A stretch of 64,000 nt of DNA, taken from Zootoca vivipara (lineage: Eukaryota). The DNA is taken from assembly GCF_963506605.1 (NCBI RefSeq), contig NC_083290.1:15314001-15378000 (forward strand), read 5' to 3'. The notes beneath the pieces were generated by a model. The model saw only the letters and a list, made by a program, of their open reading frames with translations. It had not been told where the DNA came from and did no database searches. How positions within the stretch are numbered: position 1 is the first letter of the stretch; each line of letters opens with the position of its first letter. This document shows positions 14,348 through 61,930 of the stretch, in pieces. A program made the position numbers and the translations under genes.

Positions 14348-14456
14348 AAAATAAAAAACATTCTTTCCAGTAGCACCTTAGAGACCAACTAAGTTTGTTT
14401 GGAAGGATTTTTTTAATATTTTGATTCGACTACGGCAGACCAACACGGCTACCTAC
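14348..14456. mobile_element. Penelope-like remnant lacking the hammerhead core, METTL27 intron 1
   Basis: ccagtagcaccttagagaccaactaagttt followed by ttcgactacggcagaccaacacggctacctac, as in the other copies. Confidence 0.65.
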
Positions 14457-18865: not shown

Positions 18866-19001
18866 CAGGCTTCCTCCACCTCGGCCCTCCAGATGTTTTT
18901 GGCCTACAACTCCCATGATCCCTAGCTAGCAGGACCAGTGGTCAGGGATGATGGGAATTGTAGTCTCAAAACATCTGGAGGGCCGAGGTTGAGGAAGCCT
19001 G
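18866..19001. mobile_element. ~136-bp hAT MITE (CAGGC...GCCTG)
   Basis: Palindromic ccctccagatgtttt...aaaacatctggaggg; TSD ATCTAGC(C/G). Confidence 0.8.
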
Positions 19002-19180: not shown

Positions 19181-19525
19181 CATAGCTGCCAAGTCTCCCG
19201 TTTTCCCCGGGAAACCCCCGTTTTCCCAGCTGTCCCCAGCTGAAAAAATTGATTTTTTTGTTTTCCCCCGGTTTATTCTGGTGTGGCGGCCATTTTGGAA
19301 CTGGGCGGAGCATGCTCAGAAGCGACTTTTGGTGCTGCTCTGCCCAGTTCCAAAATGGCTGCAGCGCGACTTCTGGTGCGGCGGCCATTTTGGAACTGGG
19401 CACAGCAGCATCAAAAGTCACTTCTGAGCATGCTCTGCCCAGTTCCAAAATGGCTGCCGCGCTACTTCCGGTATGCTACTTCCAGTCCGGTCCCTTATTT
19501 TTCAGAGAGGAACTTGGCAGGTATG
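19181..19525. mobile_element. 345-bp hAT non-autonomous element with the same TIR
   Basis: CATAGCTGCCAAGT...ACTTGGCAGGTATG; 8-bp TSD CATGGGGC; internal direct and inverted GCCATTTTGGAACTGGGC repeats. Confidence 0.85.
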
Positions 19526-24411: not shown

Positions 24412-24950
24412 TAGAGTTGGAAGAGACCACAAGGGCCATCCAGTCCAACCCCCTGCCAAGCAGGAAACACCATCAAAGCATTCTTGACAAATGGCTGTCA
24501 AGCCTCTGTTTAAAGACCTCCAAAGAAGGAAACTCCACCACACTTCTTGGCAGCAAATTCCACTGCCGAACAGCTCTTACTGTCAGGAAGTTCTTCCTAA
24601 TGTTTAGGTGGAATCTTCTTTCTTGTAGTTTGAATCCATTGCTCCGTGTCCGCTTCTCTGGAGCAGCAGAAAACAACCTTTCACACTATTCTATATGACA
24701 TCCTTTTATATATTTGAACATGGCTATCATATCACCCCTTAACCTTCTCTTCTCCAGGCTAAACATACCCAGCTCCCTAAGCCGTTCCTCATAAGGCATC
24801 GTTTCCAGGCCTTTGACCATTTGGGTTGCCCTCCTCTGGACACGTTCCAGCTTGTCAATATCCTTCTTGAACTGTGGTGCCCAGAACTGGACACAGTATT
24901 CCAGGTGAGGTCTGACCAGAGCAGAATACAGTGGTACTATTACTTCCCTT

Positions 24951-25163
24951 TACAGGTAGGTAGCCGTGTTGGTCTGGATCGAAGTAAAATAAAAAAATTC
25001 CTTCAGTAGCACCTTAAAGACCAACTAAGTTTTTATTTTGGTATGAGCTTTCGTGTGCATGCACACTTCTTCAGATACCTGAAGAAGTGTGCATGCACAC
25101 GAAAGCTCATACCAAAATAAAAACTTAGTTGGTCTTTAAGGTGCTACTGAAGGAATTTTTTTA
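24951..25163. mobile_element. Penelope-like element remnant with inverted pseudo-LTRs
   Basis: Perfect 85-bp inverted repeat (24990-25074 / 25079-25163). 13-bp TSD TATTACTTCCCTT (24938-24950, 25164-25176). Inserted in CR1. Confidence 0.8.
25040..25079 (-). ncRNA. Minimal type I hammerhead ribozyme within a Penelope-like element
   Basis: Minus strand reads GGUAU-CUGAAGA-A-GUGUG-CAUG-CACAC-GAA-AGCU-C-AUACC: stem I GGUAU/AUACC, core CUGAnGA and GAAA, stem II hairpin, palindromic AGCU stem III, UC cleavage site. Confidence 0.72.
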
Positions 25164-25974
25164 TATTACTTCCCTTGATCTGGATGCTATACTCCTATTG
25201 ATGCAGCCCAGAATTGCATTGGCTTTTTTAGCTGCTGCATCACACTGTTGACTCATGTCAAGTTTGTGGTCTACCAAGACTCCTAGATCCTTTTCACATG
25301 TACTGCTCTCAAGCCAGGTGTCACCCATCTGTGCCTTTCATATTTATTTATTTATTGCCCAAGTGTAGTACTTTACATTTCTCCCTGTTAAAATTCATCT
25401 TGTTTGCCTTGGCCCAGTTGTCTAATCTGTTAAGGTCATTCTGAAGTGTGATCCTGTCCTCTGTGGTATTAGCCACCCCTCCCGATTTGGTGTCATCTGC
25501 AAACTTGCTCAGGATGCCCTCAAGCCCATCATCCAAGTCATTGATAAAGATGTTGAATAAGACTGGGCCCAAGACAGAACCCTGTTGCCAGAAGGAGGCG
25601 TACAAGGCGCCATCCAACTTGGGGACTCCACTCCAGATTTGAGTATACTCCAGTCTTTCTTTTCCCGAAGATATCCTGCAAGACAGCAGAGGTTTAGCAC
25701 CAGAGTTTTCCTTCTCCTAGATGGGCTCCCTTCCCAGGTTGACGAGTCTTATCTGCTCCTCACTTTCTTCTGCAGCACGTTCAGAAACTGCCTTCTTGAC
25801 CATTGGTCACAAGACTGGTCTCGTCCGTTCAATCTTCTGGAGCCTGTCATTGCATGCAGGAAAAGCCCCTAACCCACCAAGGGTTTTAGACCCACCAGAT
25901 ACCCTCATTTGGCATAGCCAGCCAGTCGAAGCCATTGCAGGGGTGTGGCTGCTGTCACATGCTGACAACTTTTA

Positions 25975-26778
25975 GGCGAGATGACCCCCCCCCGGCCAAT
26001 CATATTTCAAACACGGCACCGGCCCCCCAGGGGTGCCCCAGCGGGCGTAGCCCCGCCGGCGGCCTCCCCCCTCCCTGCACACCGCCAGATGACCGGTGGG
26101 GCGCAACCAGCTACCAACCCCACAGCTCTGCCGTCGCCACCCCCCGCCCCAATTGGCGCATGCCCCCCTCCCCAACCCTCCTCGACCTGCCCCCCCGTGG
26201 GCAGCTGGGCATGGCGGTGGCGGCGCTGCCACCTCTGCCACTCCGGGTGGGCCGTGAGCCTCCCGTCCCGTGCGGGGAGTCCCGAGGCAGGCAGGCAGGT
26301 GCGAGGGTCTACAACCGGAGCGCTGGAAGGGCGCGCAGAGTCTTGCTCTGCTCCAGCGCTGCGCTTCTCATCCCCCGCTCGCTTTCCCACCGTCGCCCCG
26401 AGGGGCGGCCAGCGCGGGAGGTAGGCGGCCCCAGAGGCAGAGAGGTGCGAAGGTGGCCCTGCCTGCCAGGTCCCTTCCCCAGCCCCGGGTGGGGTGGCGC
26501 GGGTGGTGGGGCGTGGCGCTCCCGGCCTCCGCGAGCGCCTGTTGCAGCCCAGAGCTTCCGGGCGCCACGGCAGGCACTCTCCTGCCTGCCTGCAGCCCTG
26601 GCGGCGCATTGTCGCGCTCTTGCTTGCTGTGCTGGTGGAGAGGGAAGGTGCTGCTGGAGCCCTCTCCCTGCCTTCAGGGCACGGCGGCAGGGGGGTGGGG
26701 GGCAGGCTGGCCAGCGCCCCCTCCATTTTGGCGCCCTAGGCAACTGCCTAGTTTGCCTTAATGGACGCGCCGGCCCTG
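25975..26778. mobile_element. GC-rich hAT-like non-autonomous element (one clear terminus)
   Basis: Ends ...GGCGCCCTAGGCAACTGCCTAGTTTGCCTTAATGGACGCGCCGGCCCTG. The overlapping ORFs are low-complexity. Confidence 0.55.
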
Positions 26779-28568
26779 GTCACAGGTGAGGGCTGAGTGG
26801 ACGGGTGGGGACCAAAGGTGGACAAGCTTCCCTGGAAGGAGCACAATCTGTTCCCCACCAGAGGTGCTCCCCCCACCAACATCCTATATACCCAGGACAG
26901 TCTCTACAAACCCTCAGAAAATGGTGGAACTAGAGAAATATTAAATCCAAATGGGGAAGGGGGGGGGAAGAAAGCCCAAAATGTGTGAATGTTTTCCCCT
27001 TCTCTCTCCAAACAATCTGAAACAAGGGTCTTGAAAGCGGCAAATCCTTGCAGAAATATGGATAAGGGTGAGTTCCGTGTTGCCCAACTGGGTTCCCCAG
27101 TGGGCAAAAGAGGGTTATAACTCAGTTTGGCAGGTTTGCAAGGGAGGAAGGGATGGCCGAGACAGAGAGAGAGAAAATGCTTCTTTCTGTAAAGGACCTA
27201 ACTAAAGTTGACTTAGCCTAATGGAGAAGAGAAGGATATAAAAACAGGTCCTGGTGATTTAATAAGACGTGCATGCATGCCATCTAGAGAACAATGGGTG
27301 TGGGCCATTTAGAGATCAAGGCTCCAGATAAATACCGACTTCCTGCCCACCATTAATGGAGTCGCAGGACCTCTTGGCTTCAACAGCTTCCTTGTGGGCA
27401 GAAAAGCCCCAGCTTGGGAGTCTCCCCGGCCAAATGGGATTCTTGCCTTCAAGGCAAGATTGCCACAGCTCACAGCCCTGCGGGTGAAACATCGATGCTC
27501 CATTAAAGTTTTATTTTTATTTGCATTTTGCACCTGGTTTACAACCTGCACCAACTTCCTTGTGCTCTTTTTTAAGGAGTCACTGTTTATTTTAAAACAC
27601 CAAAGTTTACACAGAGAGGGCACCTCCCTCTCTCTTTTTACAGGACGAATGTGGGTGGGGTTTGCAGAAGCTGAACAAAGGTGTATAAGCACAGATTTAC
27701 CGGTATGCTTTTGGAAATGTTACATAGCTTCATGCTAGCTTGGGTTGATGGAAGTTGGGCGTCCAGCAACATGGAACTGACTCCCTCAGAAAGGCTCTAC
27801 TTTATTGAAGGTTTTTAAGCAGAGGTTGGATGGGGGGCCTGTCAGGGATTATTGAGCTGTGTCCTCTGTTGCTACCAGCCGAATAAAGAGCATGAAATTC
27901 ACTCTCGCCTCCAAGTATATTTCACTGTGGCTCCTGGATAGCAGGGGGGTTGGACTGGAGGAGGCCCCTTCCAACTCTATTTCGGTGATTCTGTAATTCC
28001 ATGATTCCATATCCTCCGACATTTCTCTGACATTCTCTTCCACATCAATTAGCTTCTCCTGCGTTTGATCTCGCTGCAAACATATACATCATATTCACAT
28101 CTACATCAGTCACCTTGAGCAGCAGCGGAGCTTCATGCTCCGTCACCGGGGGCGGAGAGCAGGTGCGCTGCCCCCAGTGATGTGGCGCGTGTTCTGGGGG
28201 CGGGGGGGGGGCACCATGCGCAATGACATGGTGCACATTTTGGGGCAGGGTATGCCATGCGCAGTGACGTGGTGCACGTTTTGGGGCGGGGCGCACCACA
28301 CGCAGGGGCGGAGCGCACGTTTTGTGGGCGGGGCAGGCAGCGGCGATGGCGCCCCTGGGATCACGTCACTCGGGGCGCACCACCCCCACCACCCCTATCT
28401 TCCTACACCCCTGACCTTGAGCCAATTACAACCTCTCAGTTGAACCTACCTCACAGGACTGTTGTAAAGAAAAAAATGTGCGAGCGAAGGGAATGTGTGT
28501 AATACCTTCAACATATAAATGGATTTTTTTTAAAAAATTAAGCTGTAAGCTGCCTTCAGTCCCTGTCA

Positions 28569-30637: not shown

Positions 30638-30825
30638 CGTGCTCCCACCTGCTGGGGAAACAGCACAGAGGGGGGTTAGGTTGGAAGCAGGAGCCTTGGT
30701 GTCAGGAGAATGCCAGATGAAGCTTCCCAGTTTTTTTGAGGGTCTGGATTGAGGGGGTTCTGAATACAGTGGAACCTCAGTTTTGGAACATAATCCGTTC
30801 CGGAAGAACGTCCGACTTCCAAAAT

Positions 30826-31049
30826 AAAAAATTCCTTCAGTAGCACCTTAAAGACCAACTAAGTTATTATTTTGGTATGAGCTTTCGTGTGCATGCACAC
30901 TTCTTCAGATACAGTACACAGTGAAGAAGTGTGCATGCACACGAAAGCTCATACCAAAATAATAACTTAGTTGGTCTTTAAGGTGCTACTGAAGGATTTT
31001 TTTAAATTTTGCTTCGACTCAGACCAACACGGCTACCTACCTGTAACTA
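30826..31049. mobile_element. Penelope-like element remnant with inverted pseudo-LTRs
   Basis: Same family. 13-bp TSD CGACTTCCAAAAT (30813-30825, 31050-31062). Inserted in a Tc1/mariner MITE. Confidence 0.8.
30875..30912 (-). ncRNA. Minimal type I hammerhead ribozyme, second copy
   Basis: Same core as 25040-25079 with a 4-bp stem I (GUAU/AUAC). Lies on the sense strand of the extra claudin's 5'-UTR intron. Confidence 0.62.
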
Positions 31050-31313
31050 CGACTTCCAAAATGTTTGAAAGTGGAAGCGTTTCCGTCCAGAAAACTCAAT
31101 ACCGAAGCTGTGTGGCATTTTTGGCTTCCGAAAAGCGTTCAAAAACAGAAGCAGTTATTGCTGGGTTTTGGGCATTCAATAGCCGAAATGTTAGACTTCC
31201 GAGACGCTCAAAAACGGAGGTTCCACTGTATATTGTCAGGAGCTGGAGTCAGGAGTAGGTCAGCAATAAAATACCTGGTTTCAGTGAAGTTGACTCTTTA
31301 TTCAAAGAAGCTA

Positions 31314-33684: not shown

Positions 33685-33820
33685 CAGGCATCCCCAAACT
33701 GCGGCCCTCCAGATGTTTTGGCCTACAACTCCCATGATCCCTAGCTAAGAGGACCAGTGATCAGGGATGATGGGAATTGGAGTCCAAAACATCTGGAGGG
33801 CTGAAGTTTGGGGATGCCTG
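33685..33820. mobile_element. ~136-bp hAT MITE
   Basis: CAGGCATCCCCAAAC TIR; same family as 18866, 35283 and 46748. Confidence 0.8.
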
Positions 33821-34439: not shown

Positions 34440-34598
34440 AAAAAATTCCTTCCAGTAGCACCTTAGAGACCAACTAAGTTTGCATGCACACGAAAGCTCA
34501 TGCCAATGACAAACTTTGTTGGTCTCTAAGGTGCTACTGCAAGGATTTTTTTTATTTTGTTTCGACTACGGCAGACCAAAACGGCTACCTACCTGTAA
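34440..34598. mobile_element. Penelope-like remnant, internally deleted
   Basis: Shares ccagtagcaccttagagaccaac, gaaagctcat and cggctacctacctgtaa. 13-bp TSD CTGTGAAGAAGTA (34427-34439, 34599-34611). Confidence 0.75.
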
Positions 34599-35282
34599 CT
34601 GTGAAGAAGTACTTTTGCCTAATATACACATCTTGGCAATCCACCCACCCCAATATAATGCATTTTAATATTATTTACATGAATGTTGGCATTTTTTAAC
34701 GTGCCACTACACCACAGCTGGCTCCCTTAACAGGCTAAACGCCACAGCCCCAGAGGATCCTGCAACCATTAATGGGAAGGTGAATCGTTTCCCCCTCGGC
34801 ACCTAAACGATGTAAAGAAATTGCATGAAAGGAGTATGTGGAATGGAGAAAGGACAGAAAGGTATATTTCTTTTTTGTTATTTATTCAAAGCATTTCTAG
34901 GCTTCTGGATGGAATTTACAATCCAATAAAAGGAAATTTGAAAATGCAAAAATAAAATACTGAAACACACACGCACACACACACCAGAATGCCTAACTTG
35001 AGACTCTCTGTCTCTCTCCCACCTCTCTCCCTCTCTTCCTAATCAGGCATCCCTGATTCAGGCAGAGGCGGAATGTTGAAAGCCTGGCTGCCAAAGGAGA
35101 GAGCAACCTCAGAGCATCGCTTGGGCCACGGAAAACAGGAGAGTTGGATGTTACCGTAGCTGATGGGAGCACACAGCCCTGCTGGCTGGGGGCACTGGTG
35201 GAAGGGTACCACACTGAGAAGGCCAGCATAGGTCAAAACACCTACTTCCCCAAAAAGATACTGATTGAATAATGGGCTAGAG

Positions 35283-35420
35283 CAGGCATTCCCAAATTCG
35301 GCCCTCCAGATGTTTTTGGGACTACAACTCCCATCATCCCTAGCTAACAGGACCAGTGGTCAGGGATGATGGGAATTGCAGTCCCCAAAATATCTGGAGG
35401 GCCGAGTTTGGGGATGCCTG
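35283..35420. mobile_element. ~138-bp hAT MITE in the probable CLDN4 3' UTR
   Basis: TSD GGCTAGAG; lies between the CLDN4 stop and the minus-strand AATAAA at 34881. Confidence 0.8.
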
Positions 35421-46747: not shown

Positions 46748-46883
46748 CAGGCATGCCCAACTTGCGGCCCTCCAGATGTTTTGGACTACAATTCCCACCA
46801 TCCCTGACCACTGGTCCTGTTAGCTAGGGATAATGGGAGTTGTAGGCCAAAACATCTGGAGGGCCGCAAGTTGGGCATGCCTG
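46748..46883. mobile_element. ~136-bp hAT MITE
   Basis: TSD CCATAGAC. Confidence 0.8.
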
Positions 46884-49067: not shown

Positions 49068-49751
49068 TATAGAATCATAGAGTTGGAAGAAACCAAAAGG
49101 GCTATCCAGTCCAACCCCCTGCCAAGCAGGAAACACCATCAAAGCATTCCTGACAGATGGCTGTCAAGCCTCTGCTTAAAGACCTCCAAAGAAGGAGACT
49201 CCACCACACTCCTTGGCAGCAAATTCCACTGCCGAACAGCTCTTACTGTCAGGAAGTTCTTCCTAATGTTTAATGTTTTCTTGTAGTTTGAATCCATTGC
49301 TCTGTGTCCGCTTCTCTGGAGCAGCAGAAAACAACCTTTCTCCCTCCTCTATATGGCATCCTTTTATATATTTGAACTTGGCTATCATATCACCCCTTAA
49401 CCTTGTCTTCTCCAGGCTAAACATGCCCAGCTCCCTAAGCCGTTCCTCATATGGCATCGTTTCCAGGCCTTTGACCATTTTGGTTGCCCTCCTCTGGACA
49501 TGTTCCAGCTTTTCAGTATCCTTCTTGAATTGTGGTGCCCAGAACTGGACACAGTACTCCAGGTGAGGTCTGACCAGAGCAGAATACAGTGGTACAATTC
49601 ATTCCCTTGATCTGGATGCTATACTCCTATTGATGCAGCCCAGAATTGCATTGGCTTTTTAAGCTGCTGCATCACACTGTTGACTCATGTCAATTTTGTG
49701 GTTTACCAAGACTTCTAGATCCTTTTCACATGTACTGCTCTCAAGCCAGGT
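49068..49751 (-). mobile_element. CR1 LINE 3' fragment, same subfamily
   Basis: [32 protein letters not shown]; highly similar to 24302-25584. Confidence 0.92.
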
Positions 49752-61663: not shown

Positions 61664-61930
61664 GTTGATGAAGGGTCCAGTGGTGTCCAAAAGACAAACC
61701 ATTTTTATGAAGGCATGAGCTTACGTGCGTAGAATCCGTAACACGGCTCCCCTCCCCCCCAAAAAAAATATTGTTGAAGATACGCCCCCATCACACACTT
61801 TTTATTCCTCTCTTCCTTAGCCTGTCACTTTCTTCAAAGGTAGCATGGTTCAGCATTCCTCAGAAGGATTTTCTGAGGGATGTGCTGATCACCTTCTTCT
61901 TCCCTTGGAGGGCAGGATGTTCAGTGTGAA

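What the first reader, a model, noticed from the sequence alone, without database searches (positions are those of the whole stretch)
24951..25163. Penelope-like palindromic insertions carrying minimal, dimer-type hammerhead ribozymes
Seen: a perfect 85-bp inverted repeat whose minus strand reads GGUAU CUGAAGA A GUGUGCAUGCACAC GAAAGCUC AUACC, a complete type I hammerhead with palindromic AGCU stem III. Four family members lie in 64 kb (14348, 24951, 30826, 34440), three with 13-bp TSDs. The inversion point sits at or near the ribozyme in each copy that retains it. Known: Penelope-like elements encode minimal hammerheads that cleave as dimers and often have inverted 5' pseudo-LTRs. Inference: a recently active ~200-bp ribozyme-bearing non-autonomous family whose ends are set by self-cleavage.
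Basis: partly seen in the sequence, partly recalled or inferred. Interest (0 to 1): 0.7.

Follow-up and report, generated by a model that had tools for sequence, protein, structure and literature searches.

The report
Head-to-head Penelope stubs ending at cap
This 213-base DNA palindrome is two short end-pieces of an intact Penelope-type jumping gene from the same genome, joined head to head; such pieces stop just in front of the ribozyme rather than at its predicted cut site, with one extra G that likely copies the RNA cap, so they are probably dead-end by-products that record how these elements copy themselves.

Summary
Observation confirmed: a perfect 85-bp inverted repeat, a minimal type I hammerhead motif and a 13-bp TSD; empty sites exist in paralogous host repeats. 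The genome holds an intact 3,030-bp parent (RT + GIY-YIG, CX4CxxC linker) whose end matches arm 1 at 128/128 bases. Arms do not stop at the cut: 14,387 read through it, about 69 stop there, about 65 at a control base. They pile up at the first base of stem I (18 of 129 ends), followed by a G absent from the parent (15 of 18 versus 22 of 85 elsewhere, p=8e-6). A TATA-like box sits at -29 to -32 in 17 of 19 upstream variants. Best reading: both target strands are primed on uncleaved, likely capped sense RNA at the two Penelope RT start sites, and the short cDNAs join head to head, anew each time. The inverted pLTR + tail + TSD anatomy is published. I found no paper on the cap signature, but this scan noted it before in other genomes (AI notes, not evidence). 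Cap, promoter and cleavage are untested.

The parts
24938..24950 (+). Left target-site duplication TATTACTTCCCTT (13 bp)
   Evidence: single copy at empty paralogous sites
24951..25078 (-). Arm 1 (tailed arm): first 128 nt of the parent's putative transcript, from +1 (25078) to near the tail end (24951); identical to parent positions 4-131
   Evidence: 128/128 identical to L062:1533-4562 unit
24951..24984 (-). PLE 'tail' (34 of 37 nt), present on one arm only
   Evidence: tail defined in PMC11167929 and PMC3846280
25041..25078 (-). Minimal type I hammerhead motif: 4-bp stem I, CUGAAGA, extra A, palindromic stem II, GAAA, AGCU; predicted cut between 25045 and 25044
   Evidence: sequence; anatomy matches PMC4209133; cleavage untested
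25075..25078 (.). Unpaired centre of the palindrome (ATAC); the same junction type occurs in 31 of the first 50 of 206 genomic loci
   Evidence: hand count
25079..25079 (+). Extra C on the cDNA (G on the RNA strand), absent from the parent; likely cap copy, also the 1-nt overlap with arm 2
25079..25163 (+). Arm 2 (short arm, no tail): parent positions 127-43, inverted; its hammerhead core lacks the 5' strand of stem I
25164..25176 (+). Right target-site duplication
24412..25319 (-). Host repeat interrupted by the insert: 3' part of a LINE RT reading frame (CR1-like by recalled motifs); paralogue at 49078-49751
30826..31049 (.). Second two-armed stub, tail on the right, 13-bp TSD (30813-30825, 31050-31062), 13-nt centre; related subfamily
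34440..34599 (.). Third two-armed stub, older, only the 3' half of the hammerhead; 12-13-bp TSD
14348..14456 (.). Fourth, degraded two-armed stub without hammerhead; no TSD found

Best explanation
The insert is two short pieces of the end repeat (pLTR) of an intact, autonomous Penelope-like retrotransposon of this genome, joined head to head inside a 13-bp target duplication, and it was likely made in one insertion event in which both cut target strands primed reverse transcription on uncleaved, probably capped sense RNA. Inferred steps: a TATA-like promoter in the 3' end of an upstream copy starts the RNA at the first G of hammerhead stem I. The RT/GIY-YIG protein makes a 12-13-bp staggered cut. 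One strand is primed at the tail end (+131) and the other at the short end (about +92 to +94). When priming happens on the 5' copy of the pLTR, each cDNA reaches the RNA's 5' end after 90-130 nt and gains one C opposite the cap. The two cDNA ends then join through 1-6 bases of overlap. The ribozyme is copied whole, so it had not cut. The product has no promoter and no ORF, and as RNA would fold into an 85-bp hairpin that buries the ribozyme, so it is probably a dead end.
For: Shown: parent with a 901-aa open frame from its ATG, RVT_1 E=3.8e-12 and GIY-YIG E=5.9e-05, in ~3-kb tandems. 86 copies chosen by a tail 36-mer only: 34 short two-armed, 12 long two-armed, 20 short single-armed, 17 longer single-armed or other, 3 open. 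Of 129 arm inner ends, 43 lie at parent positions 127-132, 18 exactly at 131 (first base of stem I), 1 at 95-99 and 0 at the cut (97). Base after 131 is C in 15 of 18, versus 22 of 85 elsewhere, Fisher p=8.3e-6. Genome-wide 3,764 arms leave the parent base there; the first 100 are 69 C, 17 T, 14 G (hand count). The C is single in 13 of 14 cases. 14,387 arms read through the cut; about 69 stop there (7 of 30 checked, of 295) versus about 65 at a base 4 nt away (20 of 30, of 97). TAYATARR begins at -29 to -32 in 17 of 19 upstream variants, occurs once in the 3,030-bp unit, and base -1 is a pyrimidine in 19 of 19. Short ends fall at 38-40 in 28 of 46 two-armed copies; TSD of 11-17 bp found in 33 of 46. 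With the same ATAC junction the extra-C arm is the short arm in 16 and the tailed arm in 11 of 27, and untailed arms can be longer than tailed ones (L031, L045, L057): neither arm is a simple fold-back copy of the other. Published: the Anolis PLE protein cuts and extends both strands, starts RT at two internal sites that bound the tail, and uses uncleaved RNA (PMC11167929); an extra 5' G marks the cap in full-length L1 insertions (PMC11702581).
Against: No direct 5'-end data: three RNA-seq runs were dominated by host read-through (50-92% of laid reads run on into unlike sequence) and showed no pile of starts at +1. An untemplated C added at any blunt RNA end would look the same as a cap copy. 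The TATA pattern was chosen after seeing the sequences and the 19 variants are related. 36 of 129 ends fall short of position 127 and 50 extend beyond 132, so the pile-up is a mode, not a rule. 206 loci share one junction position, which a replicating palindrome would also give. 3 of 45 palindromes carry the same variant in both arms (L050, L099, L142) against 3 clear cases of one-arm variants plus 2 junction-edge cases, so one template used twice, or later arm homogenisation, is not excluded. D. virilis Penelope uses a TATA-less internal promoter (PMC2377424), so the promoter reading may not generalise.
Confidence: 0.72

Rival explanations
1. Same two-cDNA by-product, but the discrete inner end is not a capped start: it is a processed or structural RNA end (or an RT stop behind stem I) and the C is untemplated.
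For: RTs can add untemplated bases (recalled). No cap data. In D. virilis the 5' end of helix I coincides with an intron end (PMC4209133).
Against: C is not enriched at other stop positions (22 of 85) and is single (13 of 14); TATA-like box at -30 and Y/R at -1/+1; no AG before +1 in the parent.
Confidence: 0.14
2. A non-autonomous palindromic mini-element that is transcribed and re-inserted as a unit by the parent's protein.
For: 206 loci share the junction position and 31 of the first 50 share the ATAC form; at least 38 places are 100% identical over the 94-nt query; a few copies share a variant in both arms.
Against: The tail lies on either side of the same asymmetric junction (16 versus 11); short ends range from 34 to 53; junction forms are diverse in the unselected sample, where only 1 of 86 shows the clean ATAC junction (L110); stubs lack the upstream TATA-like box; a continuum runs from 100 bp to kb.
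Confidence: 0.06
3. Ends are set by hammerhead self-cleavage.
For: The motif is conserved across subfamilies while upstream sequence diverges; the inner ends lie within 35 nt of the cut.
Against: 0 of 129 sampled ends at the cut; genome-wide about 69 stops there versus about 65 at a control base and 14,387 read-throughs. A cleaved 3' product could not carry the core.
Confidence: 0.03
4. Self-priming (snap-back) of one cDNA or of an antisense template makes the mirror arm, as proposed for Adineta PLEs (PMC3846280).
For: Junctions favour local palindromes (GATATC in 15 of 50; centre of stem II in L070, L077); occasional variants shared by both arms.
Against: Both arms can end with the sense-strand extra G; the extra-C arm is often the untailed one, whose copy could not supply a tail; untailed arms are often the longer.
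Confidence: 0.05

Closest known systems
EN+ PLE insertion unit with inverted 5' pLTR, one-sided tail and TSD (Pen2a_Av, PMC3846280; general scheme in PMC8557442)
   Same: Head-to-head inverted pLTR, 37-nt one-sided tail, TSD, palindrome at the junction, TATA-like box in the pLTR.
   Different: Here the unit is often only 180-250 bp with no ORF, occurs in thousands of copies, and its inner ends pile up at one base with an extra G. That paper inferred self-priming on an antisense template; these data point to a sense template.
PAc (Poseidon) of Anolis carolinensis (PMC11167929)
   Same: Two adjacent RT start sites bounding the tail, both strands cut and extended, uncleaved RNA as template.
   Different: The parent here has a CX4CxxC linker (Neptune/Nematis type), its ATG lies just after the tail rather than at stem II, and the hammerhead is at the very 5' end of the inferred RNA.
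Minimal hammerheads of metazoan PLEs (PMC4209133)
   Same: 4-bp stem I, long stem II with G10.1-C11.1, extra base between 9 and 10.1, palindromic 15.2-16.2; the paper notes opposite-strand pairs 100-700 bp apart in Schistosoma.
   Different: Activity not tested here; stem II is itself a perfect 14-nt palindrome.
Non-LTR retrozymes (10.64898/2026.07.22.740005)
   Same: PLE-derived, non-coding, type I hammerhead.
   Different: Retrozymes are direct tandem repeats with a hammerhead per unit; this is an inverted pair with a TSD.
L1 twin priming and 5' extra G (PMC11702581)
   Same: Second target strand primes a second cDNA; discrete TSD; microhomology at the inversion; extra G at full-length 5' ends.
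   Different: L1 twin priming copies two non-overlapping parts of one RNA; here both arms copy the same region from two fixed start sites.

Membership tests
EN+ Penelope-like element (parent) | Single ORF with RT and C-terminal GIY-YIG | tested here: met
   P0001: RVT_1 435-579, GIY-YIG 801-842, DKG and RYIDD motifs
EN+ Penelope-like element (parent) | Tandem or partial-tandem copies forming pLTRs | tested here: met
   3,030-bp and 3,000-bp spacing of pLTRs in L062 and L061
EN+ Penelope-like element (parent) | RT groups with PLE RTs in a tree | not tested
   No reference PLE proteins were fetched; PDB sequence search gave 0 hits
Neptune/Nematis-type PLE | CX2-5CxxC linker between RT and EN | tested here: met
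   CNKPRCQLC at residue 763; definition from PMC8557442. Neptune versus Nematis not resolved
PLE inverted-pLTR insertion unit | Inverted 5'-truncated copy, one-sided 30-40-bp tail, TSD | tested here: met
Minimal type I hammerhead of PLEs | CUGANGA/GAAA core, stems I and II, extra base after A9, palindromic stem III remnant, UH cut site | tested here: met
   sequence; stems I and II appear in the MFE fold of the 40-nt motif. Rfam models did not match
Minimal type I hammerhead of PLEs | Self-cleavage as a dimer | not testable with these tools
   No genomic or RNA-seq trace of cut ends
Non-LTR retrozyme | Direct tandem repeats, each unit with a hammerhead | tested here: not met
   The finding is an inverted pair. 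Two other loci, L064 and L065, are direct tandems
Non-autonomous element replicating as a unit (SINE/MITE-like) | Fixed ends and fixed internal structure shared by descent | tested here: not met
   Variable junctions, short ends and arm lengths; tail on either side of one junction

The most novel reading that the evidence does not exclude
In Neptune-type PLEs the hammerhead is the capped 5' end of the mRNA, driven by an upstream TATA promoter laid out like U3-R of an LTR. It normally does not cut during retrotransposition; its palindromic stem II and AGCU may instead pair two RNAs so that a protein dimer primes both target strands at once. The thousands of stubs would then be integrated 'strong-stop' cDNAs that show a sense, capped, uncleaved template and settle the sense-versus-antisense question left open in PMC3846280.
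Probability: 0.35. Interest if true: 0.65.

Novelty: new member of a known kind. Interest (0 to 1): 0.43.

Why it matters
How Penelope-like elements integrate, why they make inverted ends, and what their hammerheads do are open questions (PMC8557442, PMC11167929, PMC3846280). This family gives a large natural record with base-level signals: two outer start sites, one inner end with an extra G, no ends at the ribozyme cut. It names a single base to test by CAGE and a simple capped-versus-uncapped in vitro experiment. The element itself is not a new kind, and the same reading has been noted by this scan in other genomes.

Tried and rejected
Rfam scan: no hammerhead match; the miRNA matches are hairpin artefacts below gathering scores. 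Self-cleavage ends: rejected by counts (a looser first pass called 9 of 30 stops, the stricter one 7 of 30). RNA runs: no listed holder is on record as RNA; three raw RNA runs of the same species label showed host read-through and no start or end pile at +1 or at the cut, ORF-start depth 0-5; inconclusive. PDB search with P0001: 0 hits. A weak BLAST match at 61690-61727 (77.5% over 40 nt) was looked at and not counted. Arm-concordance test: too few variants to decide. One forced structure was mis-specified and is not used. Co-folding two 40-nt motifs gives the 14-bp stem II duplex (-32.2 kcal/mol), not the AGCU dimer (-2.5 for AGCU alone), so folding does not support the active dimer over alternatives. 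Paper searches with no paper on a PLE cap signature or on these stubs: (searches returned 0 papers); the library lacks most subscription journals and Repbase reports, and no supplements were read. Sequence look-up in earlier findings returned nothing.

Full report
1. Observation. The window is G000:C15:15314001-15378000 in a 1.44-Gb genome of 48 contigs; an earlier scan note calls it a lizard, which I did not check. At 24951-25163 there is a perfect 85-bp inverted repeat (24990-25074 / 25079-25163) around ATAC, flanked by TATTACTTCCCTT on both sides. The insert interrupts a LINE fragment; three fetched paralogues of that LINE carry the 13-mer once, so the duplication arose at insertion. The hammerhead string is there on the minus strand. 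Rfam has no matching hammerhead model, but the anatomy fits the minimal PLE motif of PMC4209133 (read: abstract, results, discussion).

2. The parent. An exact 36-mer from the tail side of the arm occurs 1,702 times, reversed control 0. Two loci show the arm repeating at 3,000-3,030 bp. L062 holds an open frame of 901 residues from its ATG with RVT_1 (E=3.8e-12), GIY-YIG (E=5.9e-05) and a CX4CxxC linker, the mark of Neptune/Nematis-type PLEs (PMC8557442, passages read). Arm 1 of the finding is identical to this parent at 128 of 128 bases; arm 2 is parent positions 43-127 inverted. The ATG follows the tail end directly.

3. Where arms end. I fetched 90 of the first 100 listed matches (10 left out: 3 of one tandem, 3 of the parent locus, the last 4) and dropped 4 of a second tandem array, leaving 86. 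Classes: 34 short two-armed, 12 long two-armed, 20 short single-armed, 17 longer single-armed or other, 3 open; second arms needed an exact 20-mer, so two-armed copies may be undercounted. Numbering runs from the tail end; the predicted cut is at 97|98 and the first base of stem I is 131. Of 129 inner ends, 43 lie at 127-132, 18 at 131, 1 at 95-99, none at 97; 36 are shorter than 127 and 50 longer than 132. Genome-wide, 14,387 arms read through the cut; 295 have another base there, of which 7 of 30 checked are real stops, about 69 in all. A control base 4 nt away gives 97 matches, 20 of 30 real stops, about 65. Self-cleavage does not set these ends.

4. The extra base. After position 131 the cDNA strand has C in 15 of 18 arms, versus 22 of 85 at other stop positions (Fisher p=8.3e-6). 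Genome-wide 3,764 arms have a non-parent base there; the first 100 are 69 C, 17 T, 14 G, and some of the G belong to a subfamily with native G (hand count). 1,049 arms match a 58-base exact pattern ending in this C. The C is single in 13 of 14 cases. A contig of run X1 also shows an inversion joint at this place with one C between. Upstream, 17 of 19 distinct variants from several subfamilies have TAYATARR starting at -29 to -32, one at -24, one none; the motif occurs once in the whole parent unit; base -1 is a pyrimidine in all 19. The pattern was chosen after seeing the sequences. In L1, an extra 5' G reflects the cap (PMC11702581, passages read). Inference: position 131 is a capped transcription start and the hammerhead is the first 38 nt of the RNA. 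RNA-seq could not test this.

5. How the palindrome forms. Outer ends are the tail end and a short end at 38-40 in 28 of 46 two-armed copies; TSDs of 11-17 bp were found in 33 of 46, mostly 12-13. These match the two RT start sites that bound the tail in the Anolis PLE, whose protein cuts and extends both strands and uses uncleaved RNA (PMC11167929, main text read). 206 loci have the same junction position as the finding; the first 50 are 31 ATAC/GTAT, 15 ATAT, 4 single-base variants, 0 GTAC (hand count). Two cDNA ends GATACC can pair antiparallel at 4 of 6 bases, which would give these forms (inference). Among 30 loci found with the finding's own right half, 27 have the clean junction; the extra-C arm is short in 16 and tailed in 11 (the finding itself is one of them). 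Untailed arms are often longer than tailed arms. A unit-replicating palindrome or a simple snap-back does not give this; two priming events do. Against: 3 of 45 palindromes share a variant in both arms, which allows one template used twice or later homogenisation.

6. Fate. The stub lacks the upstream TATA-like box and the ORF. As RNA either strand folds into the 85-bp hairpin (about -150 kcal/mol), burying the motif. Reads over the arm are mostly host read-through. It is probably inert.

7. Comparison. Inverted pLTR, one-sided tail, TSD and a TATA-like box in the pLTR are described (PMC3846280, passages and discussion read; PMC8557442); that paper proposed self-priming on an antisense template and left the question open. 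D. virilis Penelope has a TATA-less internal promoter (PMC2377424, passages read). Retrozymes are direct tandems (10.64898/2026.07.22.740005, introduction, methods and passages read). PMC5753468 and PMC5110153 (passages) added nothing decisive. Searches found no paper on cap-ended PLE stubs; supplements were not read. Earlier AI notes of this scan report the same stubs in other genomes and, in two of them, the extra G and cap reading; they are not evidence.

8. Verdict. Real feature, a new member of a known kind. Interest 0.43, for the testable mechanistic signal rather than the element.

Noticed in passing
L064 (G000:C1:2776500-2781500) and L065 (G000:C1:22262000-22264500): Direct tandem arrays of the same pLTR region with units of 598 bp (4 hammerheads) and 263 bp (2 exact hammerheads, 3 tail matches): retrozyme-like in arrangement and the natural place for dimer cleavage.
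   Followed up: partly
window 25053-25066 (stem II): Stem II is a perfect 14-nt palindrome; two RNAs could pair through it (-25.2 kcal/mol), and some junctions fall at its centre (L070, L077).
   Followed up: partly
L128, L130, L137, L145: A subfamily with U instead of C at the cut site (GAAAGCUU) and C at -1; still fits UH and Y/R.
   Followed up: no
L041, L054, L055, L099, L105, L117: Junctions with short repeated re-copies of the RNA 5' end, suggesting repeated template jumps at the end of the RNA.
   Followed up: no
L061, L062, L063: Full-length tandems with large inverted copies at the 5' side; L061 has frameshifted frames, L062 one intact frame.
   Followed up: partly
window 18896-18971, 33715-33790, 35314-35389, 46778-46853; 19285-19458: Other hairpin-shaped repeats that give weak miRNA-model matches; probably short DNA-transposon or SINE-type repeats.
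   Followed up: no
window 26000-26800: GC-rich, CpG-island-like stretch about 1 kb from the insert.
   Followed up: no
L062:4850-5100 in run X21: The 3' end of the parent ORF is covered at depth 100-500 in one RNA run with many variant letters, probably from embedded copies.
   Followed up: no
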